A stretch of 64,000 bases of DNA from Ascidiella aspersa (Eukaryota), in NCBI GenBank assembly GCA_963924565.1, contig OZ004610.1, positions 27,900,001 to 27,964,000 on the forward strand, in the 5' to 3' direction. Positions within the stretch are counted from its first letter, which is position 1, and each line of letters opens with the position of its first letter. The position numbers and the translations under genes were made by a program. The notes under the pieces were generated by a model. That model had not been told where the DNA came from. It searched no databases and worked only from the letters and a program-made list of their open reading frames with translations. Shown here in pieces: positions 9,106 to 48,879 of this stretch.

Positions 9106-9129
9106 AAGACCATCTGCATTTTTATGTTT

Positions 9130-13440: not shown

Positions 13441-13442
13441 TG

Positions 13443-15129: not shown

Positions 15130-15849
15130 ATGGAAGATTCGCTGCTCAAAAATGAAGTGGAAGTTTTACCTGGAATAGTTTGTCGGCTGTTGAACGAAAA
15201 CGATTTGCCCGAAATTAACAAATTGGTTGCGGATCATTACAGCTACCAACAGCCAATGAGACAAACGTTTAAACTTACAAAAGAAGACATCGGAGATTTG
15301 GACATTAGAGAGGCAATTGAAAACTTAAAGAGTAATTGTTCGCTCGGAACTTTTGTGAAAAAAACTGGAGAACTCATTGCGGTTGAACTGAATGTAATTT
15401 GTGATATAACGGACAGTAGAAGTGCAAAAAACAGTCCTGTTATGAGCGAAAGGCTTTCGGCTGCAATGAGATACAAAGAATTTGTCCTTGGTGATATTTT
15501 TTCTGATTTGAACACCAAGCGTTATATGTGCGGCCGAAAGGCGTGCGTGAAGTCGGAATATCGTTCCAAGGGGATATTTTCAGCTTTGGAAAATGTGAGA
15601 ATGCAGATTGCCAGATCAAGAGGCTGCGAGTATTTGGCTGCAATATCAGTCAACAAATACACCCAAAGGGCTATGAAAACTGCTGGCTACAAAGTGTTTA
15701 GAGATGTGCCGTATATTGATTACGTTGACCCGAAAACAGGCTTAAAACCAGATTTACAACTATCTCCAATCCACACTTCGTGTCAGATGATATACCGAAA
15801 GGTTCCACTGATTGCTGACACAAATATCCTCACCGAAAGTAAACTTTAA
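15130..15849 (+). CDS. AANAT-like GNAT N-acyltransferase with C-terminal PTS1 (-SKL)
   Basis: Intronless 239 aa; acetyl-CoA motif A CVKSEYRSKGIFSAL, AISVNKYTQRAMKTAGY; ends ESKL-stop; splice acceptor at 15118. Confidence 0.85.
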   Translation: MEDSLLKNEVEVLPGIVCRLLNENDLPEINKLVADHYSYQQPMRQTFKLTKEDIGDLDIREAIENLKSNCSLGTFVKKTGELIAVELNVICDITDSRSAKNSPVMSERLSAAMRYKEFVLGDIFSDLNTKRYMCGRKACVKSEYRSKGIFSALENVRMQIARSRGCEYLAAISVNKYTQRAMKTAGYKVFRDVPYIDYVDPKTGLKPDLQLSPIHTSCQMIYRKVPLIADTNILTESKL

Positions 15850-24881: not shown

Positions 24882-25523
24882 ATGACTACACAGCAAACCC
24901 ACAGTGATTTGACGTTTCGTGTTATGACCATGGAAAATTTTGACATTGCGTATGAATTCGTTCTTAAAAACTACACCTACAATGAGCCTTTGCGTAAAAT
25001 GGTAACTGACCGATTAGAAACACTGCCTAAAATAGACCAAGAACGAGTGAAGTCAAAGCTTAAACATAACTGTTCTATTGGTGTATTTACCAAAGAAAAT
25101 GCTATGGTTGCTGCAGTATTTAATGGCATTTCGACCAAGTGTAATGCATCGTACTGCTGCTTTCATCCCAATATTAAAAAAGGCAATTGGCTCGAACTTA
25201 TCTCCGACCTTGTGAAGTACTTGGAGGGCAACCTTTTCGACGAGTTGGGCGTCAGCAAATTTATGATGACATCAATGCTTGCCGTCCATCCTGACTATCA
25301 AAAACGCGGCCTTGCCACTGACTTAATTCGCAGAAGTGAGGTCTTGGGACAAGACTTTGGGTGTGAATGCATCCTTACTGATGCATCCAGTCATTACAGC
25401 CAAATGGCATACAAGAAGGCAGGCTATACAAAGCTGAAGGAAGCTTTGTATTCTGAATACATTCCTGACTACAAAGCGGTACCCCCACACATGTCGGCTG
25501 CTATTTATTATAAAAACTATTAG
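24882..25523 (+). CDS. AANAT-like GNAT N-acetyltransferase
   Basis: Intronless 213 aa; YTYNEPL, LAVHPDYQKRGLATDLI (motif A), DASSHYSQMAYKKAGY; TATAAA at 24828. Confidence 0.9.
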   Translation: MTTQQTHSDLTFRVMTMENFDIAYEFVLKNYTYNEPLRKMVTDRLETLPKIDQERVKSKLKHNCSIGVFTKENAMVAAVFNGISTKCNASYCCFHPNIKKGNWLELISDLVKYLEGNLFDELGVSKFMMTSMLAVHPDYQKRGLATDLIRRSEVLGQDFGCECILTDASSHYSQMAYKKAGYTKLKEALYSEYIPDYKAVPPHMSAAIYYKNY

Positions 25524-26799: not shown

Positions 26800-27559
26800 G
26801 TTTCGTTTGATTTTTGTTTGACAGATTTCAACGTTACAGTTAGCAGTCACTGCCTGAAAACAATTTCACTGTGATATTATAACAGCATTTTCTGAAGGTG
26901 TCTAGACCGTTTTGTAAAGATTTCAAAACTACAATTGCACAATATGATAATGGTCAGCAAACAATTTTGTTCATCTTTTTATGTTGTCTATTTTTGGTAC
27001 GGATTGTAGAGGTACAACGTTTTGTGCAAAACTGTTTTTGCAGTGTTAATTCCTGTTTTGCCTCTTTTTCAGTTGGCTATAGTGTTACTTTGTTTAAGTT
27101 CTTTCAAATTAGTGAATTTCTTTTTGCTAAAGTGCTTTATGTACTTAAGAGTGTCATGATTTTGTTTGTTTGCATACACTAAGTCTGCAATTTACCACTG
27201 TTTAAGATTATTTTTCAATTATTTAGTTACCTTTCCATACTTTCTCCTAAGCACCAGCCTTTTTTATTAGGCACTAGCTTTTTACTAATTTGTTTAAAAC
27301 CTAAATTCTGGGTTTTGAATGAGATTCAAATGAAATAAGAAAAGAAAGAAAACAGCAATGAATACAACAATCACATTTTTTTGGACGTAATGTGCAATTT
27401 ACCCTTCTGGTATAGACATGAAGATAATTATGAAGAGGGTTTGCTAACAGACTGAAAAAAAATTTTCCGAAAAGATTGTTCATCATTTTTGACATAAGTA
27501 AGGTAGATAAAAAGTCACAGTCATAATTCCAATATCTTTTATTTCCACAGGTCCTTAAA

Positions 27560-28378
27560 ATGACTAGGTATGAATGTAAATTGTGTCCTGCTGTTCTGGC
27601 CAAGGCAGTTGAAGAGTTAAACGAACCAGAGGATAACGTCGAAAGATTGGCTGCAGTAGACAAGCTTCGTGAGGCATTCAAAGCAAATACAGACGAACTG
27701 AAACTCTTTCGCTCCGACGATGAATTCATTCTCCGCTTTTTGCGTGCGAAAAAATTCGACCAGAAAAGGGCCCTAAAGATGCTGATTAACTACCACGTAC
27801 AGAGGCAGTCGTGGCCAGAGGTGTTCGACAAAGTCAACAACCCAGCGCTGCTTACTCCTCTCATACAAGCGGGCTGCGTTTACGGCATTCGCAACGCTTG
27901 CAAAGATGGCAGCTCACTCTTCATGGGAAAACCTGGGAAGCAAAAAGACATGGTAATGACAGATTTCCTAGCCGGCCTCTTTCTGACTATCGAGAAGCTT
28001 CTAGAAAATGAAGAAATGCAGGTGCATGGCTTGACCGTCATTGAAGACATGTTCTACATGGACATGTCTGTCGCAAAACAGATGGGCCCGACATTTGCAA
28101 AGAGATTTCTTAGCATTTTGCAGGACTGTTTGCCTGTGCGATTGAAGAGTATAAATATGTTAAATGAGCCTACTCTTTTTGACGTCCTTTTCGCTATCGT
28201 CCGGCCTTTCATGAAGGAAAAAACCAAAAAACGTCTTCGCATACTTGGAACGCAGTTTGAGAAGCTGCATGAAAAAATTAATCCCTCTGTCTTGCCAGAA
28301 TCTTACGCTGGCACCGGGCCGGAGCAGGACATTGATGGATGGATGCACATACTTCTTGGTGGAGAAACTAATATTTAA
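27560..28378 (+). CDS. CRAL-TRIO protein 2
   Basis: 272 aa, DDEFILRFLRAKKF, QDCLPVRLKSI, LPESYAG; candidate 53-nt 5'UTR intron 27498-27550; AATAAA at 28407. Confidence 0.92.
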   Translation: MTRYECKLCPAVLAKAVEELNEPEDNVERLAAVDKLREAFKANTDELKLFRSDDEFILRFLRAKKFDQKRALKMLINYHVQRQSWPEVFDKVNNPALLTPLIQAGCVYGIRNACKDGSSLFMGKPGKQKDMVMTDFLAGLFLTIEKLLENEEMQVHGLTVIEDMFYMDMSVAKQMGPTFAKRFLSILQDCLPVRLKSINMLNEPTLFDVLFAIVRPFMKEKTKKRLRILGTQFEKLHEKINPSVLPESYAGTGPEQDIDGWMHILLGGETNI

Positions 28379-28537
28379 ATGTGCATTAATTTGCCTTGTA
28401 CATTTAAATAAAGATTTATTGTCATATAGAACATTTCAGGGACTTGTAGCACATCTTTGTACCAAAGAAATATTTGCACCGCTGTGTAGTGTTTTGTGGT
28501 GTGGTTTTCTGACTTTATGACAGCAATTTATCTAGAA

Positions 28538-28882
28538 CAGCGGTTCTCAACCAGTGGGCCATTGAAACTTTTTCGGTGGGCCACAGACCTATTTAAAAAA
28601 GCTAGATTTGTTGAATAATTTAGTTTAATTCATGACACTATACCTAATTATACAGGGATAATGGCTTGGGGAGGAATTGAGAAGGAATGTAAATGAGCGT
28701 AAATTTATTTTTCAGAAGCAAGCACCTCACTAATGCACGGTCGAATATATAATCTGTTTTGTTATATGCTCTGCTATTTTTTGTTCTAAAACTTTTTTAT
28801 AGTTTTTTTTTTTAAGTTGATTGGGCACAGAATTTTCGTGCAACGAAAATGGGCCACAAAAGAAAAAGGTTGAGAAGCACTG
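28538..28882. mobile_element. Charlie-type hAT MITE, TSD ATCTAGAA
   Basis: CAGCGGTTCTCAACC...GGTTGAGAAGCACTG with perfect 8-bp TSD; absent from the paralogous position near 30930. Confidence 0.92.
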
Positions 28883-29331
28883 ATCTAGAAAATTGACTTT
28901 TTTTAATGCCAATGAAAAGCCTCTCACAAACACTACACATAACAGTAAAACAATTTTGTTTTTAGTTATTTTACCTCCCACAACTTGCACCAGCCATGTA
29001 CTACCTATATTATATATTATATATTCCAGTTAAATTCATCTGGTTTGTCCCCAATCTGTTGTGTCATGATATTACACATTTTTATTCGCCTATATATTTT
29101 CTTTATTCAAATTACTTTTCACCTCAAAATACTAATATTGCTTACTTGCCTTTCCAAAACTTTTAACACACTTTTATGCAAAAAAAGACTTTTCCATCAA
29201 CATACAAGTACTACTTTACTGATAAGTATGAAAAATAATTGATTTATATGTTTGTGCATTTTTTTATATTTATGCGAGAATAATTAGGGTGAATGTTTTG
29301 TCATGTAGGCCGTTCTTTTAGTTTAAAAACA

Positions 29332-29491
29332 ATGGGTTATTTTTCGTTGATAAGTTTCGTTGCACTTTGCCTGGTTTCTTCTGCGTTTGCCTGCACGCCG
29401 GTAAATTGCACTCATGATGACCTAATTGGTACCTGGAACTTTTACTTTTCCGAGGGCGGACATGACAGAACACTGGACTGTTCAAAGCCAG
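29332..29491 (+). pseudogene. Orphan duplicate of cathepsin C exon 1
   Basis: Near-identical to 31288-31447 with intact ATG and donor but DTPANC changed to CTPVNC; no exon 2 follows. Confidence 0.9.
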
Positions 29492-29960
29492 GTTTTTATC
29501 ATTTTGTTTGTTAATAATATTAATATGTGTTTAAAACACCAAATTAGGACATCTGTACAAATTTAAATTTATGGCAATCCAACGTCTATTGAAGTGATAA
29601 AACAATTTAAATGAAAACCAACTTGTTTTTAGTCAAAATAATGCCTATTTTGTTGCTGAAACATTGTATGGAAATATGTTGTAATTTGCAGAAATCTAAG
29701 CGAAATCTATGTTTTTAATGCTCTAAATGAGGTATTGTTTTGTGAATTTAACAAAGTATATATTTCTAATAAATAACCTAAACAATTGTGGGTATAGTAG
29801 GCCAGCAAATATGGGTCTATACCCACTCTAAAATATCATCAATAAGTAATCATGCTATGTATTTTATTATCTGTATCTGTCCATTGGTTTAAATCCAGGT
29901 AAGGTGAATAAAATGTAACAGTAATAATTCCAATATCTTTTGTTTCCTCAGGTCCTTAAA

Positions 29961-30779
29961 ATGACTAGGTATGAATGTAAATTGTGTCCTGCTGTTCTGG
30001 CCAAGGCAGTGGAAGAGTTAAACGAACCAGAGGATAACATCGAAAGATTGGCTGCGATAGACAAGCTTCGTAATGCGTTCAAAGCAAATACAGACGACCT
30101 GAAACTATTTCGCTCCGACGATGAATTTATCCTTTGCTTTTTGCGTGCAAGAAAATTCGACCATAAAAGAGCTCTAAAGATGCTGATTAACTACCATGTA
30201 CAGCGGCAGTCATGGCCAGAGGTGTTCGACAAAGTCAACAACCCAGCGCTGCTTACTCCTCTCATACAAGCGGGCTGCGTTTACATGATTCGCAACGCTT
30301 GCAAAGATGGCAGCTCACTCTTCATTGGAAAACCTGGGAAGCAGAAAGACATGGTATTGACCGATTTCCTGGCTGGCGTCTTTCTGACTGTCGAGAAGCT
30401 TCTAGAAAATGAAGAAATGCAAGTGCACGGTTTAACAGTTATCCAAGACATGTTCTACATGGACATGTCTGTTGCAAAACAGATGGGCCCGACATTTGCC
30501 AAGAGGTTTTTTGGCATTTTGCAGGACTGTATGCCTGTACGATTGAAGAGTGTGAATATAGTCAATGAGCCTACTCTTTTTAACATCGTTTTTACTATTG
30601 CTTGGCCTTTCATGAAGGCAAAAACCAAGAAACGTCTTTCCATACTAGGAACGCAGTTTGAGAAGCTGCATGAAAAAATTAATCCCTCTGTCTTGCCAGA
30701 ATCTTACGCTGGCACAGGCCCTGATCAAGATATTGATGGATGGATGCACACACTTCTTGGTGGAGAAACTAATATTTAA
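29961..30779 (+). CDS. CRAL-TRIO protein 3 (tandem duplicate of protein 2)
   Basis: 272 aa from ATG 29961, closely similar to 27560-28378; acceptor at 29951, donor at 29899. Confidence 0.9.
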   Translation: MTRYECKLCPAVLAKAVEELNEPEDNIERLAAIDKLRNAFKANTDDLKLFRSDDEFILCFLRARKFDHKRALKMLINYHVQRQSWPEVFDKVNNPALLTPLIQAGCVYMIRNACKDGSSLFIGKPGKQKDMVLTDFLAGVFLTVEKLLENEEMQVHGLTVIQDMFYMDMSVAKQMGPTFAKRFFGILQDCMPVRLKSVNIVNEPTLFNIVFTIAWPFMKAKTKKRLSILGTQFEKLHEKINPSVLPESYAGTGPDQDIDGWMHTLLGGETNI

Positions 30780-31287
30780 AAGTGCATAAATTGGCTTTGT
30801 ACATTTAAATATAGATTTATTATTATATAGAACATTTCAGGGACTGTAGCACATCTTTGTACCAAAGAAATATTGCACCGCTTTGACAACATATTTTGTG
30901 TTGTTGTTTCCTGACTTTATAACAGCAATTTTTCTCAAAAATTAACTCTTTTAATGCAAATAAAAAAATCTTCAAAATCAATGCTTTCAAAAAATACTGA
31001 AAACAGTAAAGCATTTTTTTTATGTTGTACCAGCTATTTTACTTTTTTATTTACCTATCTTTTCTATATTTGATATACTTTTCACCTCAAAACACTAATA
31101 TTGTTTCCTTGCCTTTCCAAAACTTTTAACACACTTTTATGCAAAAAAGACTTTTCCATCAACATACAAGGACTATTTTACTGATAAGTATAAAAATATT
31201 TGTTATATATGTGTGTGTATTTCTATATTAATGTGAGAATAATTAGGGTGAATGTTGTTATGTAGGTCTTCTTTTAGTTTAAAAACA

Positions 31288-34200
31288 ATGAGTTATTTTT
31301 CGTTGATCAGTTTTATTGCACTTTGCCTGGTTTCTTCTGCGTTTGCTGACACGCCGGCAAATTGCACTCACGATGACCTCATTGGAACCTGGAACTTTTA
31401 CTTTTCCGAGGGCGGACATGACAGAACACTGGACTGTTCAAAGCCAGGTTTTTATCATTTTGCTGGTTTATAATAATAGATATTGGTTTGAAACACCAAA
31501 TCAGTACACCTTGCAAAAAATTGATTCATGGAAATCCAATGTATATTGAAGTGATAAAGCAATTAAATGAAAACTAATTCAGTTTTAGTCAAAGTAAGTC
31601 TTTATTTTATTCCTAAAACATTGTATGGACATTAGTTAAATTTTGCAAAAATCATAGCCAAATCTGCTTTCTAAATTCTGCCAAAAAGTTATATTTGTAA
31701 TTCATAACCTAAACAATTGTATAGTGGCCAGCAAGTACAGGCAAATGCCCACTTTAAGTTGTCATTAATAGATAATCATGTTATGTATCTCCTTATCTTG
31801 CTCAAAACTGTAATAAAAACATTGCCTAAATTTTTTGTGTGGCATTTTCTGCAGGGCCTGTTGCAACGGTAATCCCTTTCACACTGTCCAGCTATAACAC
31901 TGTGGTTAAAGAGAATGATGGTCAAAGGGGAAACTTTAACCTTGTGTACAACCAGGTTTGCAATAATAATATTAATAAAAATAATTCGGGCCAGTCATAG
32001 AAAATATTTGAAAAAAACTGTAATAATTTTTGTATTTTTTTTTGCAGGGATTTGAAGTAATAGTCGGCTACCGAAAGCTATTTGCCTTCTTTGAGTGGAA
32101 AAAAGTTGATGATAGCAGTTCTGTGTTCTGGTGCAACCGAACCATGTACGGCTGGGCACATGATGTGCTTGGAAACGATTGGGCCTGCTACATTGCCATC
32201 AAGCAGGAGCCAAAAGTACCCGGACAGGAGTTTACAGTGGCAAATTGGAATGGAAACGTGGTCAAAAACGTCTATTCCTCGCCAAGGTTTGCATCTCGCT
32301 GAAATATTTTACAAGTTGTGTTATTTCAATAAAAAAAAATTAGGGTAGTTCAAAAAGTTGTACCATCTACTCTACACAACTGTCCTAAATAATTTAAAAA
32401 TAAAAATGGCATGTTTGTTATTTACAGTGGTATTCCAAAACTTTTTAGTCTTTGACCCTTTGGAACTTCCTAAAACTTTTTGCGACCCTTGTTTAAAATT
32501 AATAAACAAAACATTCCTTAATGTTAAACTGATGTAGCCCTACTCCTAATTTCTCAAACTAATCATACCAACCCCAGTTTGCAAAACCCAGCTGTACACC
32601 ATTGCTTTGTTATATCCCTGACACAATAGAATGAAGCGATTATTTATTAAACAACAAATTTTTAACATATTATGACCATCTTCACGTTTTTCAGTGTTAA
32701 AAGTGTCCTGGAACTTCCCTATGAAAACGATGAAAAATTTATTTCCCAACTCAATGCTGCGCAGAGCTCATGGAAGGCTGGCAACTACCCTGACCTTGAC
32801 AAAATGACCTACAACCAAGTACTTAGAAGATCTGGATTTGGCAACGGGAAAATCAACAAGTAACCTATGTCTTGAGTACATTTAGGGGCAATTTTCACAC
32901 TTAAATGTAAACTGATCAAAAGGAAATTAAAGGTTTTTAAATACATATTTATAATAAATATAAATAAAACATATAAAATATAAACAAAATTTATTTTTAT
33001 TTTGGAGCCAATTTAATGCTTTATAAACTGTATTTCTGTACACCAGGGTTTCCCAAGCTTTTTACGTTGTGGCCCCTTTGAAAACTGGCCAGGTTGGGAA
33101 CCCCTGCTGTACACCATTTTGCGTGTTAAATTCTGGTCTATTTTTAGCTGCTTTTTATCCATTCTGACGAAATACAAGTTGTAAAATGGTTCTAATCTCA
33201 GTTATATAGACTTATATTTTAACTGACTGTCCGATTTTTTTATCACAGGCCAACCCACGTTGAAACGATGACGTTGGCCAAGCAAACTTACATCAAATCC
33301 AAACTTCCAGAGTCTTACGACTGGAGAAAGGTCAACGGAATGGACTTTGTTTCGCCTATCCGAAACCAGGTTAACACCAGTCAAGAAATTTAAAAAAAAT
33401 AATGCACGTAACGTTTGTATAATGGGCGCATCATTTTGCAAGACACGCGACCAAGTGTTTGCAGCTTTAACGGGTCGAAAATCTTAACCTTTAAAATAAG
33501 TCTTATTACTTTGCCTGAGGCGGTCAATTTATAAAATATACCCCTGATTACATCTATAAACAAACTATCGGTTTTTTATTTTGATAAAACATTTGCAAGT
33601 AGCCTTGAAAAAGCGTTTGCAAGCAACTTAACTGACATATGTAAAATGGATATCACACTTGTTGTGCAGGGACAAATAAAATAAGAATGCAATGTTTATT
33701 TATTTAATCTAGGTTACAGAGAACGATAATTCCAACTAATGAGTGTTGTTTAGTGCAATTAATTTTTTTGTGGTATTCACTTAGTATAAAGGCATTCTTC
33801 TGGGACGTTTTATTTGAGCGTTTTCAGACAAAGTAAAACCACATCTGTCAAAATGTAAAACATAGATTTTAATCGTAGAATGAATATGAAAGCCCATACA
33901 GAAGCAGGTGGCATTTTGTGAACTTTTAGAATATTTCTTTCTTTATTTTTAACACAGTGGCCATGATATTCAATCTATCTACATTCAACTACAACCTTTA
34001 GCTATTATGCTTCCAACAGATTTTACTGACATGTCACGTTTAAATACTATTAAAATCTAAAAACGTCAATTTCATTTTGTTGCCAGGCATTGTATCAAGT
34101 ATTACTTTTTATTGTGTTAGAATTAACGAGATTTTAAGAGGAATAACAAACAAACGACAGGCTTCTTTGCACTTGACAGTTTTCGTCACAAAATTTTAAC

Positions 34201-37200
34201 ATATAACGAAAAGCGGCTTCACGTTCGAAGTTTGACCAAATTGCAAATTTCGCCATTCACCTTTAAAACAGGGTTCTTGCGGAAGCTGCTACGCATTCGC
34301 CTCGATGGCAATGCTTGAAGCCAGGATCCGTATTATGACCAACAACACCCAGACACCAGTGTTTTCACCCCAGGAGGTTGTATCCTGCAGCCAGTACGCG
34401 CAAGGTGGGTGTTAAACGTACTTTGTTGTGGCAAAATCAAGGGCTGCGGAGTCAAAGTCGGACTTGGTACTTAAGGAGTCGGTTTGTTTTGCTGGAGTCG
34501 GACTCGAACTTAAGTAAGACCACGTAGAACTAGCCGAGTCCCGAGTCCGACATGCGCAGTACAACATTTTTAAAATTGATGTGGCGGCCAACTGGAAATT
34601 GTTAAGGTGGAACAGCATTGTAAGGTCGAACATTTTCCAACCAAGTATTGTGAGTGAATGAATTATACCACACCTCTATAAGTGAAATGCGGAATTATTT
34701 TAGTTAAGCGTCATGGCTGGACTCTGGATTTACTTTTTTGCCGGAGCCGGACTCGTTATTTGTTTTCAACCGACTCCGCAACCCTGCCGAAAACCACGTT
34801 TGTATTTTAAGCGTGGAACAGCATGTTTGTTATATCCGCACCTAAAACCAATTGCTGGCCACCGAATCCCATTCCTGACCACTTGGTTTTAATGTTGATT
34901 AAAATCAGATTATAAATCTCTAAAATTAAAATAAGGCGGTAACATCAGAAACAGGCTTGACAAAATCTGTAATTAGGATTTTCGTGCGAGCGAGGCTAGA
35001 AAACACACATCAGCTCTGTGTTTGATGTTTTTGTTCTAAAAACAAAATTGTATGGTCAACTGGTCATTTTAGGGGTAAGTGCGATGTATGCAACAGTCAA
35101 CATATTCACACCGTAAAAAGGTGACTCAAGTTAAGTCACTGTAACTGAAAATTTACTAAAATGGGCTGTGATAGAAGTATTATTTAAATATAAATACGTA
35201 AACGCTACAAAAAATATCTAAACGTTAACATAGCAAGGTTATTTTTCTTTAATAATAACCTTTGTAAATGCCTGTATTTTGCTATATAAAGAAAAAATGT
35301 TTTACATTATGACAGGCTTTCGCACAATCGTGCTTGATCAGGTCCAAAGTAAAAATCATTCTAGGCTTGTCAAGATTTCAATAGGTTTTTAATACAAATT
35401 TACAATATTTCAATAGAATCATATAGTGCCAGCTGATTGCACTTTCTTTAATAAGTGATCCTAAACCACAATATTTCCATTTTTTTTCAGGTTGCGCCGG
35501 GGGCTTTCCCTACCTGATCGCCGGCAAGTACGCGCAAGACTTCGGGGTGGTCGAGGAGGGTTGTTACCCCTACAAGGGCGAGGACACCCCCAGCTGTGAG
35601 CCCGCCAAGCCCCACTGCAAGCGGCACTACGTGGCTAAGTACGAATACGTGGGCGGGTATTACGGCGCCTGCTCCGAAGCCAAAATGATGGAGGACCTTA
35701 TCGCTTACGGACCAATGGCAGTTGCCATCGAGGTTGGTGTCTGTTTCAACTTTGCCATAGCTGTCAAATTTTAATCTTACCAATGGCACTTGTCATCGAG
35801 GTTGGCAAATGCGTATTTTTGCTTATGTTTAAGATTGCCTCAGCTCAATAAGGGACTTCTAAAAGTAAGCGACCCAACATATTTTGTCCAGCAGTTCGTA
35901 ATTTACAGCGCCTATAGACACGCATCGAACAAACGTAATTTTGATATCTTGTACCACGTTTAGGTCAATCGCAAAGTGTGTAAAAATCATAACGTTTAAA
36001 TATTACATTTTGATAAAACGCGATACTGATTGCGCCTAAGACAGCGTGCTAGATAGCAGGCAGTGTTTAAAAGACATGGCCCCCAAACTTTATTTCCTAA
36101 CAATCCAATTAATTTGCGTTACGGCGATCGTTAAGCGTTATTGCCGAAAAGCTTACAACCATGTGCCTAGCTACTGCGCAGTACAACAAACAGCAATTAA
36201 TTTAACGATGCTTTATTGGCGATTCGTACAAGGCAGTACTAGACATCAACAGCCCTGTCATGTGACGGTTATCCAACCGTTACCAATGATACAGCCCAAG
36301 TATTACGCAATCACGCGCGATACACAATAAGTAGACGGATGTTTTTTGTTTCCAGTATGTTACGTTTTCCTTATCTGTGGCTCGTTTTAGATTAAAGTTT
36401 AGGCCTGCGTGTGTAGTATTGTTAAATTAGTGCCGCCGTCAAACTATATCTCACACATGCTAAGTAGAAAAATAATATATATTTTTTAAGTCCTGCCACT
36501 TACTAAAACAAATTTTGGCCTTGTAATGCATAACGCGCACCTGGAAATGTCCATTTTTCAAATAAAATTTTAGAAAAATACCTTTCATATCTGTTTAATA
36601 ATAATTTTTAAGATCATATGTAAAAAATGAAAGCACTTGTTGACCAACTTAGTACAGGGTACTACCTGTTTTCTACCGATGATCATAGTGTATGTACAGG
36701 GGCGTATCCAGAAATTCGAAAAGGGGGGGGGGTCCGAATTTTCAACTCAGGGAATTCCCCGTTGTTTTTACGTCGGACGTTAATGACGTCATAAAATAGT
36801 GACGGATATCACGTCATAAAATAGCGATGGTAATGACGTCATAAATAAGAAAAAGATCATCCGAAACAGCCAATTAACGTCCAGCAACTTAAAATTAGGG
36901 ATGCTCAAAGTAGAATATCGAATCCTTGGATTCGAATCCAATTCTGCCATTTATTTCGGGTAATTGGAACCGATATAATTTAATGTTTTACCGCGGATTG
37001 TTGCGCCTAATTGCACAAACGCGTGTGGTAAGTTGGCCTGTCGCCGCGGCGACCAATTTATAGTGCTTGCTTTAAATGTAACCTCGTAGTGCAGTGTCAG
37101 CGTTTTTTCGGGCGACCAATTACCGCGTCTCGCGATAACGTTCGTCTAATAATTAAGTGTCAATCAAGCGTTATTGGGCGAGCGGCTAACGTGTAATGTC

Positions 37201-38800
37201 TGGTGTGGAGTTTGCAATTTCCCTAAATGCGTTAAGTTGCAAGTAACATAGCGTTGCAAAACGTGCTGGCCGTCCACAAAATGCGCTATGGGGTTACTTA
37301 AGGTCAACTTTAGGCCAATATTCAGGGAAGTTATGCAGATATGCACCACGTAATTGTCAAGAATTCGTTATGTCAATAATAACTTTGTCTTCTTTGCGGT
37401 ACATCATATGACTGCATAGCAGATCATGTTAGTCAAAAAAGAAGCAATAATACTTAATAATGCTTTCAAAATCAGGACCGAATTGCTTAAGACTTTTATG
37501 TGCAGTGTTGCATTTGCTCACTTTTGGCAAAAATATAAGTTTTGGACACAACCTGGGCAGTTGACATATTACAGTTTACAGAACGGCTTAAGATGACAGA
37601 ACTTTGTTAAGAATGTTAAACATATGAGAGAGTTTTTTATTATAATGTTCACATGTTAGAAAATTGTTTGGGCTATTTTTTGCTGTGATTGTGGGCCCTG
37701 TAGGGTAGATTAAGATTAACCCCTTCCCCAAACAAAATCGAGGTTAAATAATTTAATAAAAATATACTAGGATTCGCTATTCTGGATTCGTTATTCTAGA
37801 TTCGAAACCTATTATTCTAGAATACCTTGGGATTCTACTTTGAACATCCCTACTTAAAATAGTCAAAAAGTATTTGAAATGAACTCGTGTATAGTTTGTC
37901 AAAGAGGCGACGGGCCCGATGAATTACAGTAGGTTGCCGACCCCAGTCTTACACCAACATCTGATATTAACGCAGACAACAAACAGAGAGCAACATCAGC
38001 ACCGTCTAACTCGAAGTTTTCAGAGAGAAAAAAACGGAAACCGCTTAATTTATATTATTAATTGTCAAACACACACTTGCTGATTAGCCAACCCGAACGA
38101 ATAACGAAAGGCGAAAGAGAAAAACTATCTAGCGTTTACGGTCGACCAAACAAAAGACGAAAAACGGCGTATTGCGTTTGATCTTGGTTTCGCATTAGCT
38201 TAAGACGCGTCACCCAATTACATTATAAAACACGCAGCTTTGGACGGTGAGTTTAAACGCTGAAAAAACGAACAAAAAACGATAATGTCACTTACGAAAA
38301 GGGGGGGTCCGAACCCCCAACCCGTCCTAATTGCAAATCATCGCAGAGATTCTATGTTGTTTGGTATCGACACCTCTCTAGTATCGGACCGCTACGATTA
38401 CCACCCATTTGCGTCGTCGAGTTTTGGCACCGTTGTGATATTATAGGGCATTCCTATCGGTGACTATGCAGAGAGTAAACCAGTCGATCCAAACATCGCG
38501 ATTTTTGTCCAGGTCTACCCAGACTTCCAGCAGTACAAGTCCGGCATCTACCATCACGTGACCAGCGTTGACCAATCGCAGCCCGAGCTTGGCTACAACC
38601 CGTTCGAACTGACCAATCACGCCGTTCTGGTGGTGGGCTACGGCGCTGATCAGAAGACGGGCGAGAAGTACTGGATCGTTAAGAACAGTTGGGGCGAAAA
38701 CTGGGGCGAGGGGGGCTACGTGAGGGTGAAAAGGGGTGTCGACGAGATTGCAATCGAGAGTCTTGCCCAGCAGAGCTTCCCCATACCAGATCTAGAGTGA
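31288..38800 (+). CDS. CTSC: Cathepsin C / dipeptidyl peptidase I, 8 exons (31288-31447, 31855-31955, 32048-32286, 32695-32859, 33249-33369, 34272-34404, 35491-35732, 38513-38800)
   Basis: Signal peptide + DTPANC exclusion domain, [17 protein letters not shown]|GSCGSCYAF (catalytic Cys), [19 protein letters not shown] (His), KNSWG (Asn); all introns GT-AG with matching phases. Confidence 0.97.
33044..33106. mobile_element. 63-bp minimal hAT MITE, TSD CTGTACAC
   Basis: CAGGGTTTCCCAAGC...GGTTGGGAACCCCTG flanked by an exact 8-bp duplication. Confidence 0.85.
36896..37852. mobile_element. hAT non-autonomous element in CTSC intron 7, TSD CTTAAAAT
   Basis: TAGGGATGCTCAAAGTAGAAT...ATTCTACTTTGAACATCCCTA with exact TSD; apparently nested in an older element starting CAGGGGCGTATCCAG near 36697. 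Confidence 0.9.
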
Positions 38801-40641: not shown

Positions 40642-43506
40642 CTCTAAATGCAACAATAACAACAACAAAGTTTCATCCTATATCGCTCTAACAAGGTTCC
40701 CTAAACTACAACCCGCAATGTAATTTTGTCAGCTCTCGACATTCTCCTAACGTATGTAGTTAAATAGTTGATGCAATTCAATAGGAAATATTTAAGAAAT
40801 ATTATACTAAACAAGAATTTCATAAAGTTTGGTACAGCATTCGCTTAACCATAGTCATTTACGTTTGCAAAAATTGTTACTAATGTTACGTGGTCTCAAC
40901 ATGGCTATGGTGGTTCAATGGTAAGCCACAAAGCTAAAAAAGTTCAAGATTTATGAAATTTCAATAAAAAAGTCTAGTTAAAGAACACCGCATTTGACGG
41001 ATTTCCATAAAGAGTGAAATTTTGTTTTGTTGACAGAATTTGGACGAACGACCCGGATATATATTCAAAAAAGATTTTGTTAGTTGCAAAGTTCTTTTTG
41101 GAACAGCACCCAGGAGCTACAAAGACTTATGTCTCATATCCTAAGCACATCTTCCATTGGGAGATGTTTTCAGTTAGCTTATTTCTCTGCAGAACAATTT
41201 TAACCTTACTTGTCACTGTCATAAAATGTGAGTAGCTTGCTTATATTCACAGTGACACTTATACCTATACAACAGTGAAACAATAAGTTTTCGTTACCGT
41301 ACCACACCTATAGCCACTCAAACCTTCGATTAAACCAAATTAACAAATTTTAAAATTAAACAAAACACTCACCACACAATGTTTTTTTACAGATCTTCTT
41401 TGTTGTTTTCTGCTATAAACCGAGACAAACATCTTCAAACTAGCAGTATCTGCCATAAACCAGATACATCTTTTCAATATTTAATCAAAATAAACCACTG
41501 GCATACAGCATGGTTAGCTAAAAAGGTGTTAAAAGCAGTCGCTTGCCGCGCAAATGACGTAAATTGCCAATTAGTTCCGCACCAACAATTTGCAAACTAG
41601 TCGATGCTATGGGACAGGTGTGTAACTGGATTGTAGTTTGTTTTATGGAATAAACTTATATATATCAATTCGCTTGGTATAAGAGTGGCAATCAACTTAA
41701 CAAGGCATGATTTTAACTTTTTCAAAGGGGAAGTTTTTCTCCGTGTTTTTTAAATAAATTATGTCTCAATTCCCAAAGTTTGTATGCGCATTCTGATCAC
41801 ATGACATTCGCCCTAAAATAAATTTAAGTTTATCACATATTCAGAAAAGTAAAAGTGCGCTTTATATTAAAACCTAAACCTAAACAGTTGTTCCTACAAA
41901 ACAGAGACAAAAAGCGCATGTAGAAAGTTTATCAATCATAACGTTGTCTTATTGTAAGATATTCTGCATGCATACAGTTATTAAAGGGAAAGTATTTCCT
42001 CGTTGTGAAAACAATTCGTTTAAGCCAATCATAGGCCTACCTCATTGCAACGCCCAAAAAGAGGAGAAATATTACAATGAAATGGAGTTTTACATAATAG
42101 AATATATCTCTTCTTTTCGAGTAATTGCACACATGCAAAAAATACAGCATATAATGTTCAAAAACAAATAAAAAATTTACCATGAATAATTGGTGTTTCT
42201 TACTTTTTTTATTCTTCATAGGAAACATCTTTAAGAATTAAACTCAAACTGTCGCCGAAAAGTCACGTAAAATTCTGTTAAAACGTTAAGCAAAAACGCA
42301 ATTTGTATTTGGAGGAGTTTGATGCGTTTTTAGTGTCCTCAGAGGGGTGTTCATTTTACTTCGGAAACTAGGGGAAATCCTTCTAAGAAGACGTATATAT
42401 AATTCCTAAAGTATCAACTATATAATTTAATTATTTTGAGTTTCTCTGAATATGTGTAATTTGACGTTTTGCAGCGTTGGACAGTGTTGTTAAGGACAAC
42501 AAAAACCTTTAGGTCGTCAGCATTCATATTTGAAATTTGAGCGTGTGTTATGCGGAAGCTTACTTAACTTAACCACGTGTAAATTCACGTCAGTTTTTAT
42601 TGTCAAAAACTGAACTGCTAAAAATTTACTTGCCTCCTATTTTAAACCGAACGACGGTTTGTTAGCAGACAACACGTTACTGTTTAGCGCCGTGTATAAT
42701 TTAATAATTTTAATGCTAAAAGCGAGATTAAAGGTCTTACAACCACAGGAAATCATTATGTGGTTACACCTTTTTGTGATTCTTGGTCGTTAGCAAACAT
42801 CAAAGCTGAAGCATAATAAAAACATAACACGTAAATATCGAATTGTTGAGAAATTATATTTCACGGTTATAACGCAACATTTATTCAACAAACCACCAAC
42901 GATAAATATAGGTTTGCTAATTACCACCAAACCACATTTGAGGAAATTGAGAGAAGTTGGTTTTATAATACAAGTTGCAATGTAAATCGAACGAAACTTA
43001 ACTCGTTTCAATTTTTTTAACAAGTAAACAACAACAAAAACTACAACAACAACGCTAATGGGTTCAATCTTTTCGGAACAACAATTTACCAAAGGATAGA
43101 GTAGCCTGAGCTCTTTTACAACCGTAGTCCACACTTGACTCTTTAAAGGTGCATTTTTTTTGTTCAGCCTGAATACTATAACAAGAGAACCATGATATTT
43201 CAGGCCATAACAAAGCACCATCATATCATTGAAATTCGTACTTGTCAACCTATGGGTCGCTACTCAAATTTTGTCGCAAGCCATATAAGCTTGGGAACCA
43301 CTGGTTTACGTGGTAAGATTTGTTAAGATTAGTTCTGAGCAAGATTTCTCCAAATTAGAACGAGCTAAAGAAGCAAGAAAAGAAACATGGCCCATATTAA
43401 GTCAAACCTACTTATGCTATTGACTAATTGGAGTTGGGTCGCCAAATCCTTGCCGACTTGTGCTTATTATTTTCGTGCAGTGCAAAAAAGTTCGAGAACC
43501 ACTGTT

Positions 43507-44469
43507 TTAAATGTTCGGCGTGCTTACAGCTTCAACTTTAGCTGCTTGAGCAGTGTGAAAGTTGCGCGGGCCGGCTTTCTTGGCCCGATTGCTGAAAGCG
43601 ACTATTTCCGTCCAATTTTCGAAAGAGAGCACAGCGAACATCACGTGGAGACACATGTCGATACTGTAAATTAAGTTAATATGATGCAACGCGTTGTCAC
43701 GATGCAAGTTGATCATAAACGATAGAGCCACGTCACAAGCTAAACCACAAGCTGTGATCGCTGCTATACGTTTGGCGACGCGCAAAATCTCTTGCGCGTG
43801 TCTGCCGCGCAAATGAGAGCGCAGCGGAAAGAGGAACTGGAAAACCAACGATGCTCGTGCCACCCACATCACACTGACCAGCAAATACTCCGGACAACTG
43901 GAAATCGAAACCGGACCGTCGTCGGTGCAGCCAGTTCCAGAATCTTCAGTCGCATGAACGTACGCGTAATAAGACTGAACCGCGAATATACCGAAAAGGT
44001 ACAGCGACAGTATCGACCATTTGAAAAGTTTCAACAGCGGGTTGATGTCCTGTATAATGGATATGTTTACATACAGGTAATGGAGTCTCAGCCAAAAAAG
44101 CAAGTAATAACATAAAAAGAAATATAGAAAACAAATAACGCCCAAAATGGTGGCAATCCTGCAGTAAACCTGTGACCCAACGCCATGCTCTAGGTCTAGG
44201 TTGAGAACAACTTGGTCAGAAACCAAACCTATTAAGCCGAAAACAAACGTTGAAAGGCTAACGAAGTAAATTGGCCTGCGGGTGACCTTCATCCCGTACG
44301 AAGAGTTCCCAGCCTTTTTCCATTTTCCGCTGCGTATCCCGTAAACCACGAAGCTGCCGATGAGCCAAATTAAGCCGACAATTTCAATAACGTTCAAGGC
44401 CCTTGCTGCTGCATTCCATTCGGGTGGACCCAGTCGAGAAAAATTACCGGACTCGTTTCCTTTCAACAT
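43507..44469 (-). CDS. Orphan intronless 7TM (GPCR-like) protein, copy A
   Basis: 320 aa, about seven hydrophobic segments, N-terminal sequons (NES, NFS), Cys at top of TM3 (YCR) and in loop 2 (GC), TM3 end motif YLLFWLRLHYLY. Confidence 0.85.
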   Translation of the reverse strand: MLKGNESGNFSRLGPPEWNAAARALNVIEIVGLIWLIGSFVVYGIRSGKWKKAGNSSYGMKVTRRPIYFVSLSTFVFGLIGLVSDQVVLNLDLEHGVGSQVYCRIATILGVICFLYFFLCYYLLFWLRLHYLYVNISIIQDINPLLKLFKWSILSLYLFGIFAVQSYYAYVHATEDSGTGCTDDGPVSISSCPEYLLVSVMWVARASLVFQFLFPLRSHLRGRHAQEILRVAKRIAAITACGLACDVALSFMINLHRDNALHHINLIYSIDMCLHVMFAVLSFENWTEIVAFSNRAKKAGPRNFHTAQAAKVEAVSTPNI

Positions 44470-47400
44470 TTCAGGAAGTTTCCAAGGTTGAGAAATGAAA
44501 TCCCAAACAAGCGTTCTTGAAAATATAGTTATATACTGATAACTTCTTTAAGTTGGAAAATTATAGATTATTAAAAAGTAAAGTTGGGTTTGAAATAAAA
44601 CTGTACATTAACTGTAAAATAAAGAGGTAAAGAACACCTTCATAATGCAAAATGATTTATTTCAGACGAAAGTAAACAAGTAGGCTACCTTCACATCTCA
44701 TTTTTTGCAACTTAAATCATATTACAAAGTGTTTATATTATGCAAAACGAATGTTGTGTTTGCATTACCTACTTCGAAAACGTTTGCCGAAACCAGTTCT
44801 GTTGCCGAAACTAGTTCTGTTGAAATATTTTTCTTATACACAATATTTTTTACCATAGCTTTGTACTGCTGACTACAAACCCAACATTATGTCTAAATCG
44901 CTATAGCTTATATACAGCACATAGTCACCAGTTAAAAGTGCTTGCTATAGCAATTTTTACTGCCGTCTAATTAACTACAATACTCTCCTGTCACTTATTG
45001 AGATTCACCTAAGTTAATAACATAGGCATTTATTTCTATATGACAAAATAAAGTGATGCAACACAAATGTAGACTCTTGTGCGTCTTGCAAGTCAAATAT
45101 ATAACATCCTAGATAATTTTTCTATTATTCCCAAAAGCTCTAATCTAATTGCATTTCGGCACTCTTTTAAAAAGAATTACCGTCTGGGCTTTGATACAAA
45201 TATCATGTATTGCCGAAACCTATATTCAATCCCAAACGCCACTTTTCCCAATCATCTTAACGCGCCAGGAAAAATACTACCAGGATGCGTCTGTCTACGG
45301 TCGCGGTTAAATACCAAGAAATAATGGCCTGCGTAAACCCTTTGTGATGTGAAGCAACCAACTCTGCTGGGATTGACATTTCCTGAACATGTTCGCCTTG
45401 GAATACCTGTCCCCGCTCTATAATAGGCTAGGTCAAGTAAAATTTAGGGCGTTGGTCAAGTTAAAAAATATATCTACAGTACATTGAAACTTCGCAAGGA
45501 ATAGCGGGTCGGCAAGATTTTACAAAGAATTCGAAAGTCATTTTGTCCATTGAAAGACAGAGGGAGCAAGTCCAAACCGACATCCTTCTGTAGCTGATCA
45601 ACGGTTCGCAAAATTTGACAATAATTACAGTCGCTCGCCAAATCATCACATTTTAGACTTTGCTGTAGATTATTTTTGACTTTTCCAAGTAGATAAAAAT
45701 TTCCGAATTCGGGAAAACTGCAAATCTAACTAAAATCAGAGACAAAAATTTCTACGCATATAATGTCACTTTTTAGGCTGAATGATTGAACTGCATAGCT
45801 GAACCTTGCTTCCTCTAATAAGAATAAAAATCACCTTTGGACAAAATAGCATTTTGATAAAATTGATTATTAGTAGGGCGATTATTTTTTGACTAGTCAA
45901 AAAAATTACACGTTAGGTCAAAATTATTTCAGGTGAAAATCTTTACAAAATGCACGAACATCATTTACAAAATTAACAAAACTTGTGGTAAAATTGTCGC
46001 TCAAGTTATTATTTTAACAAAATTAGAGTATGCGGTATATGCGAGCAGGCATAATCAACCATGCATGCCTTGTTTATCGCATTAGGTTCAGACCGAACTT
46101 CGTTTTTGCCTCTGATAATTGTGTATTCCTGAATTCATAAAAATGTATTGAACAGTTTTTGATGAGTGTTTTTTCGTTTTTTTTTCGGTATTTATAAATA
46201 TGTTCGGTTTCGAAATTTTTGCTGGTCTTGTTACCTTGTATTTCCACCACACTGCTTTCTGAACAATTTTCTAAAACAACCAACATCTTGTTTTTCTTTG
46301 GTCTAATTGTTTGTTTGTTTGATATGCAAAAAATATCAACTATATAAGCGTTCATAAGTTTTGCATAATCCCAACAAAATATATGATTCGTTAACCACCA
46401 ATCGTCAGTAAAACATCAAAACAAATGACTGACGACGAAGCAATACACTAATTGCAGTACTTTATAGTTTGTAGTTTATACAACAAAGCATTGCTTAAAT
46501 CAATATATGTTTTTATTGGTAAAATTTTTGTCAAAAAAATATATTTATAGGTCCAAAGATAAATTTTTTAGGTAAAAATGTATTACTTTTAAGTCAAAAA
46601 ATAATCTCCCTAAAGTTAGATAGCAACTAAAATTGGAGCACACAATTTACAACTAGTGCTTGACGTCAAGTGACGAAGAATCTGTACTTATGAAGGGGTT
46701 TCCCCACTGAGTGCAGTGATAGCAGCATGGTCGGTGATTGCGGGTCTTTTGCTTTAAGAAGCTTCAGAGAGCCCACAGACCGATAGGACAGGTTAGTTGC
46801 AACAACTGTTTGGTGCTAATTACAAGCAATTCGAAATTGGAACGCACAATCAATTTAACTTGTGATGGTCAAATCGATGAATGACTTTAATGAGTGTCTC
46901 ACTTTACTATATGTGTGATGTATATTAAATACTTTTTTATTGTTTAAAATTACTGTCAAATGCATTTGGGATTATTTTAGTGCAGGAAATATTTAGCAAA
47001 CTGTTTATATAGGAAATTGTAATGCTAGCTATGTTTTTGTAAACTTTACTCTATCATTTTGGCTCCAAGCAATGCATCCCCGCCTTAAATAACTTAACCA
47101 TATAAAAATATGCTGCATAACGCAACGTAAACACCTGTTGTAAAATGTTTGGTAACCCTTGCGTTGGAAGAATTTGCTAAATTTAAAAGAAGTGCCAATG
47201 GGACCATGTTAGTGCGACTGTTACTTTTGACTGGGGAGGATTAACAACCGCTATATCAAGTAAGACAAAGTATTAGTAAAAAAGTTACTTTTTCCTGCTA
47301 AATTTGGAAAGGGTTTCAAAGTTTGCTTCTATATACAAGTTAATGGTGTAATAATTCTTTTAAACGGAATTTATTCGTTATTTATTGGGAATATCGAAAC

Positions 47401-48843: not shown

Positions 48844-48879
<36 letters not shown>

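What the first reader, a model, noticed from the sequence alone, without database searches (positions are those of the whole stretch)
27498..31800. Tandem duplication left CRAL-TRIO-3 without its own promoter, behind a captured cathepsin C first exon
Seen: the duplicated unit is CRAL-TRIO + CTSC upstream + exon 1 + part of intron 1 (about 27498-29872 versus 29899-31798). Copy 3 is therefore preceded only by CTSC-derived DNA, yet its ORF is intact and diverged. Splicing the orphan exon (donor 29492) to acceptor 29951 gives ...KP-G-P-stop, with TAA A ATG placing the CRAL-TRIO start 1 nt after the stop. Inference: promoter capture with a secreted 55-codon uORF and re-initiation, or expression by trans-splicing.
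Basis: partly seen in the sequence, partly recalled or inferred. Interest (0 to 1): 0.7.

Follow-up and report, generated by a model that had tools for sequence, protein, structure and literature searches.

The report
Ascidian duplicated cathepsin C first exon
In a sea squirt, a tandem duplication copied a lipid-carrier (CRAL-TRIO) gene together with the first exon of its neighbour cathepsin C; the new carrier gene is transcribed, likely by ordinary spliced-leader trans-splicing, and the spare exon likely gives cathepsin C a second start that lacks its substrate-anchoring Asp1.

Summary
The duplication is real: a contig from a public run bridges the breakpoint. The genome is an ascidian's, with 573 copies of the Ciona-type spliced-leader (SL) exon. 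Copy 3 is intact (dN/dS 0.21) and transcribed. It is not preceded only by cathepsin C (CTSC) DNA: it kept 27 CRAL-TRIO-derived bases, a donor-like site and its own acceptor. The stop-start motif is inherited, since copy 2 has it too. RNA depth is 0 over 29492-29797, 0.04 up to 29950, then 10. No orphan-exon-to-copy-3 junction reached the 3-read listing limit. Instead 3 reads join the orphan exon in frame to CTSC exon 2, against 8 for the normal exon 1. Best reading: copy 3 is cut from read-through RNA at its acceptor, likely by SL trans-splicing, and the orphan exon is likely an alternative CTSC first exon with Asp1 changed to Cys. Limits: no SL-bearing read was seen, only 6% of one RNA run was read, the 3 reads may be misplaced (the last 61 exon bases are identical), and a minor chimeric mRNA is not excluded. 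The uORF and re-initiation model is not supported. The mechanisms are known; the case is a lineage-specific curiosity.

The parts
27498..27550 (+). 53-nt segment before CRAL-TRIO copy 2: donor-like GTAAGG to acceptor; short 5'-UTR intron or end of an outron
   Evidence: sequence; RNA depth 0 over 27350-27502 and 3.8 over 27503-27655
27560..28378 (+). CRAL-TRIO copy 2, one coding exon, 272 aa
   Evidence: RNA depth 3-15
28407..28439 (+). AATAAA and likely main 3' end of copy-2 mRNA at 28439
   Evidence: 5 molecules of depth 12 begin at 28439 on the antisense mate; AATAAA; reading it as a poly(A) site is inferred
28538..28882 (.). MITE with terminal inverted ends and 8-bp target duplication, in unit A only
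   Evidence: 39 other genomic matches listed at 80-87% among the 40 scored of 1480 candidates; hAT label is recalled
29057..29321 (+). Copy of the stretch between the CRAL-TRIO 3' end and CTSC exon 1; ends in an unpaired acceptor-like TTTTAG
   Evidence: 11% divergent from 31023-31277 against 20% for the intron copy; acceptor context
29322..29491 (+). Duplicated ('orphan') CTSC exon 1, ATG at 29332; likely alternative first exon of CTSC; changes S2G, I10V, D21C (mature Asp1), A24V
   Evidence: Pfam CathepsinC_exc; RNA depth 3.16 over 29339-29491; joint to CTSC exon 2 in 3 reads with 3 starts; open 482-aa frame when joined to exons 2-8
29492..29871 (+). Copy of the first ~350 nt of CTSC intron 1; 73% A+T; possible outron of copy 3
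   Evidence: RNA depth 0 over 29492-29797
29872..29898 (+). 27 nt of CRAL-TRIO-derived upstream sequence; the duplication breakpoint lies at its left end, likely at a 4-nt microhomology
   Evidence: 23 of 27 identical, by eye, to the letters that run X2 has before copy 2 (table 5c; window letters)
29899..29951 (+). 53-nt segment before copy 3: CAG|GTAAGG donor-like site to acceptor AG at 29950-29951; likely trans-splice acceptor
   Evidence: RNA depth 0.04 over 29798-29950, then 10 over 29951-30103
29961..30779 (+). CRAL-TRIO copy 3, one coding exon, 272 aa, expressed, under purifying selection
30780..31277 (+). Copy-3 3' UTR and stretch up to the CTSC acceptor-like TTTTAG; RNA in every bin (8.9, 7.2, 2.5, 2.2)
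   Evidence: AATAAA at 30959
31278..31447 (+). Normal CTSC exon 1, ATG at 31288, mature N-terminus Asp-Thr-Pro
   Evidence: joint to exon 2 in 8 reads
31855..38800 (+). CTSC exons 2-8 (31855-31955, 32048-32286, 32695-32859, 33249-33369, 34272-34404, 35491-35732, 38513-38800); 482 aa, open
   Evidence: model built by hand from GT-AG sites; exon 1-2 joint and exon 3-4 loose end seen in RNA, the other joints not tested

Best explanation
A tandem duplication copied a one-exon CRAL-TRIO gene together with exon 1 of the neighbouring cathepsin C gene; the new CRAL-TRIO copy kept its own splice acceptor and its RNA begins there, likely by spliced-leader trans-splicing from a read-through transcript, while the copied exon likely serves as a second first exon of cathepsin C rather than as a leader for CRAL-TRIO. 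Steps: (1) Shown: a unit running from 27 nt before the CRAL-TRIO donor-like site to about 350 nt into CTSC intron 1 was duplicated head to tail; the 4-nt microhomology at the break is inferred. (2) Shown: both CRAL-TRIO copies and the spare exon are transcribed on the + strand, and the intron copy between the spare exon and copy 3 has no reads. (3) Inferred: polymerase starting at or before the spare exon runs through copy 3. The donor of the spare exon then either splices to CTSC exon 2, removing copy 3 as part of a 2363-nt intron (3 reads), or the acceptor at 29951 takes the 16-nt leader and yields copy-3 mRNA, so copy 3 needs no promoter of its own. (4) Predicted: the alternative CTSC is full length (482 aa) with Cys in place of Asp1, and would have weakened or altered dipeptidyl-peptidase activity. 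Odds by part: trans-splicing as the main 5' end of copy 3 about 0.6; spare exon truly spliced to CTSC exon 2 about 0.65.
For: Duplication and anatomy; bridged by an X1 contig. SL genes: 573 matches (up to 1 mismatch) v 1 control, many at a 584-bp period. RNA edge at the acceptor in both copies: 0, 0, 0.04 then 10 for copy 3; 0 then 3.8 for copy 2. Joints listed: 29488-31852 GT..AG, 3 reads, 3 starts; 31444-31852, 8 reads; none to 29952. Subtracting bins of the two lays gives about 29 letters (depth about 2) on 29339-29352, in the part of the spare exon that differs from normal exon 1, and no X7 read was counted as fitting two places, so the spare exon itself is transcribed. X7 shows two alleles at normal exon 1, so the spare-exon type is a third type, which needs a second locus if the run is one animal. 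Only two copies of the exon exist in G000. In Ciona about a fifth of genes are in SL-resolved operons, 60% of operons start with a one-exon gene (PMC2760879), and trans-splicing is frequent at the first cis acceptor (PMC11155486). Asp1 anchors the substrate's N-terminus and is conserved in all sequences of a 58-sequence survey (PMC8836896; PMC11337848); query residue 22 aligns to residue 2 of the human exclusion domain.
Against: No SL-carrying read was shown: X7's 3 loose-end rows lie elsewhere, and 16 rows were hidden. Both lays read the same 6% of one RNA run. The 3 joint reads have a shorter side of at most 50 nt and carry the flag 'between: not known'. The last 61 nt of the two exons are identical, about 37% of junction reads would be ambiguous, and the reads could be misplaced normal-exon reads. 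Up to 2 reads joining 29491 to 29952 would not be listed. The donor 53 nt before copy 3's acceptor is strong (CAG|GTAAGG), and in Ciona strong first donors go with less trans-splicing. Copy 2's main 3' end (28439) is about 880 nt before the next acceptor, and RNA depth falls to 0 at 29172-29185, so this is not shown to be a zero-gap Ciona-type operon. Whether D21C is fixed in other animals was not resolved.
Confidence: 0.45

Rival explanations
1. Copy 3 has its own short start: transcription begins within about 30-80 nt of the acceptor, in or near the 27 co-duplicated bases, and the 53-nt intron is cis-spliced or the short leader is unspliced.
For: The 27 nt and a strong donor came with the copy. 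A first exon under about 30 nt would not show as depth or as a joint in these lays. The 6 letters in 29798-29950 fit one unspliced read or three CAG-matching spliced reads. A GGTT(T)AA motif lies 75 nt before copy 3's ATG and 118-129 nt before three tandem paralogues (4 of 11 upstream regions; 5-13% of shuffles each).
Against: Upstream of those 27 nt lies only a CTSC intron copy. No 29898-29952 joint reached 3 reads. The motif is weak and three of the four carriers are tandem relatives.
Confidence: 0.25
2. One reading: the spare exon is spliced to 29952, and copy 3 is made by re-initiation behind a secreted 55-codon uORF.
For: The junction is a valid GT-AG splice and gives the stated uORF. The spare exon is transcribed and no read runs into its intron. 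The shortfall of junction reads is not significant (P 0.06-0.35).
Against: No such joint was listed. Depth on the spare exon (3.2) is about half the mean depth on copy 3 (6.3 after removing a five-fold duplicated fragment), and part of it is assigned to CTSC exon 2. The stop-start motif is inherited from copy 2.
Confidence: 0.12
3. The spare exon is a transcribed leftover with no stable product, and the 3 joint reads are misplaced reads of the normal exon 1. This concerns the spare exon only and can hold beside either account of copy 3's start.
For: 76 identical bases span the donor (29431-29506) against 11 differences in the 99 before them (Fisher p 0.003), which points to gene conversion rather than selection. 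Shorter side of the joint is 50 nt or less. Asp1 is lost, which would be tolerated in a dead exon.
Against: Signal-peptide-like N-terminus, frame and donor are intact. 5 non-synonymous v 6 synonymous differences (dN/dS 0.23, p 0.02); a neutral copy would show 10-16 non-synonymous differences (P 0.002-0.08). The letter total on the exon (547) fits three fragments, each with a spare-exon mate and a junction mate (my arithmetic; not unique).
Confidence: 0.33
4. The duplication is an assembly artefact (two haplotypes laid in tandem).
For: Ascidian alleles are divergent; X7 shows a normal-exon-1 allele with 5 changes in about 50 nt.
Against: dS 0.26 and 20% intron divergence; an X1 contig spans the breakpoint; DNA depth is even over both units; RNA reads match each copy at 99% or more in most cases.
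Confidence: 0.02

Closest known systems
Ciona SL-resolved operons and genes trans-spliced at the first cis acceptor (PMC1488885, PMC2760879, PMC11155486)
   Same: Same 16-nt leader in the genome; one-exon upstream gene; acceptor-like AG 9-10 nt before each ATG; RNA running from the CRAL-TRIO stop towards CTSC exon 1; a first donor-acceptor pair in the 5' region.
   Different: Zero intercistronic distance is not shown; no SL read was seen; here one donor would choose between a cis partner 2.4 kb away and loss to trans-splicing, after a recent duplication.
Drosophila Sdic (AnnX-Cdic chimera; PMC3395120, passages)
   Same: Duplication of two adjacent genes leaves a middle unit whose upstream region is built from an exon and intron pieces of the parents, with both parents intact.
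   Different: In Sdic the fused pieces made a new promoter and N-terminus for one chimeric gene. Here the two halves appear to stay in separate mRNAs, and a leader would supply the 5' end.
Alternative first exons from partial tandem duplication; nested genes (recalled, from no call)
   Same: A duplicated exon 1 spliced to the shared exon 2, with a whole gene inside the longer intron.
   Different: The nested gene is on the same strand and was duplicated in the same event; support is 3 reads.
Cathepsin C / dipeptidyl peptidase I (PDB 1K3B; Pfam PF08773)
   Same: Normal form has signal peptide, Asp1 exclusion domain and the catalytic Cys and His motifs.
   Different: The predicted alternative form has Cys1 and Val4; Asp1 was conserved in all sequences surveyed in PMC8836896.
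Tunicate one-exon alpha-tocopherol-transfer-protein-like CRAL-TRIO genes
   Same: Pfam CRAL_TRIO and CRAL_TRIO_N; best named hit Phallusia mammillata at 65%; 11 such matches in G000, mostly in tandem clusters.
   Different: Nothing of kind; copy 3 has R59C and E220A at columns that are R in 23 and E in 21 of 28 homologues.

Membership tests
Ciona-type SL-resolved operon | Organism has SL RNA genes | tested here: met
   573 matches to the SL exon plus GT v 1 control, in tandem arrays; motif from PMC1488885 Table 1
Ciona-type SL-resolved operon | Downstream mRNA carries the leader at its acceptor | tested here: inconclusive
   RNA edge at 29951, but no loose end with leader letters listed at 29952, 29322 or 31278 (16 rows hidden)
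Ciona-type SL-resolved operon | Upstream mRNA 3' end abuts the downstream acceptor (zero or under 100 nt) | tested here: inconclusive
   Main copy-2 end at 28439, about 880 nt before 29321; low RNA depth continues to about 29171; every bin from copy 3 to CTSC exon 1 has reads
Ciona-type SL-resolved operon | Unresolved polycistronic transcript seen | tested here: inconclusive
   Short reads only; the 29488-31852 joint would imply transcription across copy 3 if the 3 reads are rightly placed
Chimeric gene from adjacent-gene duplication (Sdic type) | Tandem duplication with a breakpoint inside one of two neighbours, parents intact | tested here: met
Chimeric gene from adjacent-gene duplication (Sdic type) | Mature mRNA joins pieces of both parents | tested here: inconclusive
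   No 29491-29952 joint at 3 or more reads; fewer would not be listed; P 0.06-0.35 under the chimera-only model
uORF with re-initiation | uORF and main ORF on one mRNA, with ribosomes re-initiating | not testable with these tools
   No Ribo-seq; the mRNA itself was not seen; the stop-start motif is shared with copy 2
Alternative first exon of cathepsin C | In-frame GT-AG splice to exon 2 | tested here: met
   Open 482-aa frame; joint listed with GT..AG ends in 3 reads
Alternative first exon of cathepsin C | Junction reads carry letters specific to the spare exon | tested here: inconclusive
   Read-level letters not shown; shorter side 50 nt or less; 61-nt identical tail
Dipeptidyl peptidase I (spare-exon form) | Asp1 at the mature N-terminus | tested here: not met
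   Cys at the position that aligns with Asp1; the signal cleavage site is inferred from that alignment
CRAL-TRIO / TTPA-like (copy 3) | CRAL_TRIO and CRAL_TRIO_N domains above Pfam cut-off, open frame | tested here: met
   79.4 v 22.6 bits and 30 v 23 bits

The most novel reading that the evidence does not exclude
One duplication built a splice-choice switch in a chordate: a single pre-mRNA yields either CRAL-TRIO copy 3 (leader trans-spliced at 29951) or a selected cathepsin C isoform that skips it and has lost Asp1. That isoform would be a natural cathepsin C with changed or relaxed N-terminal specificity, made from the same gene as the normal enzyme.
Probability: 0.2. Interest if true: 0.6.

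Novelty: new member of a known kind. Interest (0 to 1): 0.32.

Why it matters
If true, it is a small, testable example of how trans-splicing lets a duplicate that lost its promoter stay expressed, and of how the leftover half of a neighbour can be kept as an alternative first exon. The Asp1-to-Cys form would be a natural probe of the residue that makes cathepsin C a dipeptidyl peptidase. The processes themselves (tandem duplication, SL trans-splicing, alternative first exons) are known, and the case appears confined to one lineage, so the general interest is modest.

Tried and rejected
No listed holder was on record as RNA; the RNA evidence comes from X7, added by species label. The second lay with X7 alone read the same 7,793,684 records, so it gave finer bins but no more depth. 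The pile-ups 'end 30011' and 'begin 30376' (5 each) look like one duplicated fragment and were not read as a start site. Synteny in relatives: 0 of 78 metagenome loci with a CRAL-TRIO relative held a CTSC or GNAT match. None was a close orthologue (best 55%) and many are short, so this says nothing on the age of the arrangement. A TATA-like box at 31189 that is altered in unit A was rejected as evidence: 56% of shuffles have one. A shared 53-nt 5' intron in the other CRAL-TRIO paralogues was not found: 2 of 8 have a GTAAG within 170 nt, at other distances. The GGTT(T)AA motif is weak. The supplements of PMC1488885 had no hit for cathepsin, tocopherol or CRAL (2 files searched, file 2 not searched); that unseen file could bear on whether the gene pair is a Ciona operon. 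Literature searches for a like case: one search gave 0 papers; others (2 listed; 15 listed; 4 listed) showed none on this locus or arrangement by title and abstract start; (12 of 605 listed) showed nothing on this species group. Earlier scan notes: none. No fold or complex was predicted.
Full report
Observation. The window lies on contig C4 of a 308.6-Mb, 75-contig genome. The best named relatives of copy 3 are from Phallusia mammillata (65%), Ciona, Clavelina and Styela, so the animal is an ascidian. A MITE at 28538-28882 with an 8-bp target duplication interrupts unit A only. Copies 2 and 3 are open 272-aa CRAL-TRIO genes with dN/dS 0.21. No column on which all 28 other aligned homologues agree is changed in copy 3, but R59C and E220A hit well-kept columns. 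The proposed splice gives the 55-codon uORF and TAA-A-ATG as stated. A contig of run X1 spans 29477-29976, and raw DNA reads of X6 cover the junction evenly, so the duplication is real.

Run X2 has 37 extra letters in front of copy 2's GTAAGG (table 5c). By eye, with the two flanking A's, they match 29872-29898 at 23 of 27 positions, and X1 carries a change at 29882 that adds a 24th. The duplicated unit therefore began at about 29872. Copy 3 kept 27 nt of its own upstream DNA, a donor-like CAG|GTAAGG, a 53-nt segment and its acceptor. The window's copy-2 allele has likely lost 39 nt. Both parents show CTTG at the break, which suggests a microhomology-mediated event (inferred). The stop-start motif is present unchanged in copy 2, where no uORF precedes it, so it is inherited A-rich start context.

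Trans-splicing background. The 16-nt Ciona leader (PMC1488885 Table 1, passages) followed by GT matches G000 573 times with up to one mismatch, against 1 for the control, much of it in 584-bp arrays. In Ciona about a fifth of genes are in operons and 60% of operons begin with a one-exon gene (PMC2760879, passages and section 10). Trans-splicing is frequent at the first cis acceptor and is favoured by a weak first donor (PMC11155486, abstract and Results parts 1-2 of 3). Predicted outrons average 438 nt (PMC4691747, passages). Both copies of CTSC exon 1 have an unpaired TTTTAG 10 nt before the ATG.

RNA. X7 is a stranded RNA-seq run; both lays read the same 6% of it. Copy 2, the spare exon, copy 3 and CTSC all have + strand RNA. 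In 153-nt bins the depth is 3.16 on the spare exon, 0 and 0 on the intron copy, 0.04 on 29798-29950 and 10 from 29951; copy 2 shows 0 then 3.8. Copy 3 is thus expressed, and its mRNA starts or is joined at its acceptor. Joints are listed from 3 reads. Two GT..AG joints appear: normal exon 1 to exon 2 (8 reads) and spare exon to exon 2 (3 reads, 3 starts, skipping 2363 nt that hold copy 3). None joins the spare exon to copy 3. Bin subtraction puts about 29 letters on 29339-29352, in the part where the two exons differ, so the spare exon itself is transcribed. X7 has two alleles at normal exon 1, so the spare type is a third type; G000 has only two copies of the exon.

Results against this reading. 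No leader-bearing read was shown. If every copy-3 mRNA carried the spare exon, 5-6 junction reads would be expected; P(2 or fewer) is 0.06-0.10, and 0.35 at the lowest local depth. The chimera is therefore disfavoured as the main route but not excluded. The 3 reads to exon 2 have a shorter side of at most 50 nt, the last 61 exon bases are identical in both copies, and about 37% of junction reads would be ambiguous. Copy 3's local donor is strong, which in Ciona goes with less trans-splicing. Copy 2's main 3' end (28439) is far from the next acceptor and depth drops to 0 at 29172-29185, so a zero-gap operon is not shown; CTSC may have a compact promoter that was copied with the exon. The stretch before exon 1 is better kept (11% divergent) than the intron copy (20%), which fits either a promoter or a 3' UTR element.

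The spare exon's product. Joined to exons 2-8 it gives an open 482-aa cathepsin C with S2G, I10V, D21C and A24V. Residue 21 aligns with Asp1 of the human exclusion domain. Asp1 anchors the substrate's N-terminal amino group (PMC11337848, passages) and was conserved in all of 58 sequences surveyed (PMC8836896, passages). Altered or weakened dipeptidyl activity is predicted, not tested. The exon pair shows 5 non-synonymous v 6 synonymous differences (p 0.02), fewer than a neutral copy would give (P 0.002-0.08). A 76-nt identical tract over the donor (p 0.003) points to gene conversion, so selection on the spare exon is not established.

Mechanism. Shown: duplication, retained acceptor, expression of both copies and of the spare exon, RNA edge at 29951. 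Inferred: read-through from at or before the spare exon; leader addition at 29951 as the main source of copy-3 mRNA (about 0.6); cis-splicing of the spare exon to CTSC exon 2 (about 0.65). Rivals: a short local start with a cis-spliced 53-nt intron (0.25), the uORF chimera (0.12), a dead spare exon with misplaced reads (0.33, not exclusive of the others), artefact (0.02).

Comparison and verdict. The locus works like a Ciona SL-resolved unit, but membership as an operon is not shown. In origin it resembles Drosophila Sdic (PMC3395120, passages), but a chimeric mRNA was not seen. Alternative first exons from partial duplication are a known class (recalled). Searches (listings only) showed no report of this locus or of an ascidian cathepsin C isoform. 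Relatives gave no synteny information (0 of 78 loci). Interest 0.32.

Noticed in passing
window 27497 (run X2, table 5c): A 39-nt indel polymorphism just before copy 2's donor-like site; the window's allele is the short one. It removes the stretch that copy 3 kept.
   Followed up: partly
window 28538-28882: MITE with an 8-bp target duplication and many genomic copies (1480 candidates), inserted in the stretch after copy 2; + strand RNA continues through and beyond it at depth 2-5.
   Followed up: partly
window 28407-28439: Five RNA molecules end exactly on a TTTCAG at 28439, 27 nt after AATAAA: a poly(A) site, or an operon-type end on an acceptor. In copy 3 this AATAAA is changed and another lies at 30959.
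   Followed up: partly
window 29431-29506 v 31387-31462: 76 identical bases across the exon 1 donor in both copies, likely gene conversion.
   Followed up: partly
window 29898-29899: CCAG|GTAAGG is at once acceptor-like and donor-like, so a recursive two-step splice from 29491 to 29952 is formally possible; no read supports it.
   Followed up: no
window 31306-31356 and 32099-32128: Run X7 carries a divergent CTSC allele (5 changes in exon 1, at least 5 in exon 3), including signal-peptide changes.
   Followed up: no
window 15130-15849 and 24882-25523: Two one-exon ORFs; the second matches GNAT acetyltransferases and sits 467 nt before CRAL-TRIO copy 1 on the same strand; the first had no Pfam match.
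   Followed up: no
window 43272-55874 and on to 64000: Nested duplications holding three one-exon ORFs of 320-362 aa on the - strand (43507-44469, 50849-51811, 53892-54980) with many hydrophobic stretches; the one scanned had no Pfam match.
   Followed up: no
window 7732-9106 and 13439-14451: Inverted repeat of about 1 kb built from roughly 384-bp tandem units, around reverse-transcriptase- and integrase-like ORF fragments (resemblance recalled, not tested).
   Followed up: no
G000:C3:5218799-5450447: Large arrays of SL RNA genes at a 584-bp period on both strands, with further copies on C1 and C2 that differ after the donor.
   Followed up: no
L089 (G000:C6:10262500-10270500): Three tandem CRAL-TRIO paralogues each have a near-palindromic GGTT(T)AAT-N-TTAAC site 118-129 nt before the ATG, resembling an HNF1 site (label recalled).
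   Followed up: partly
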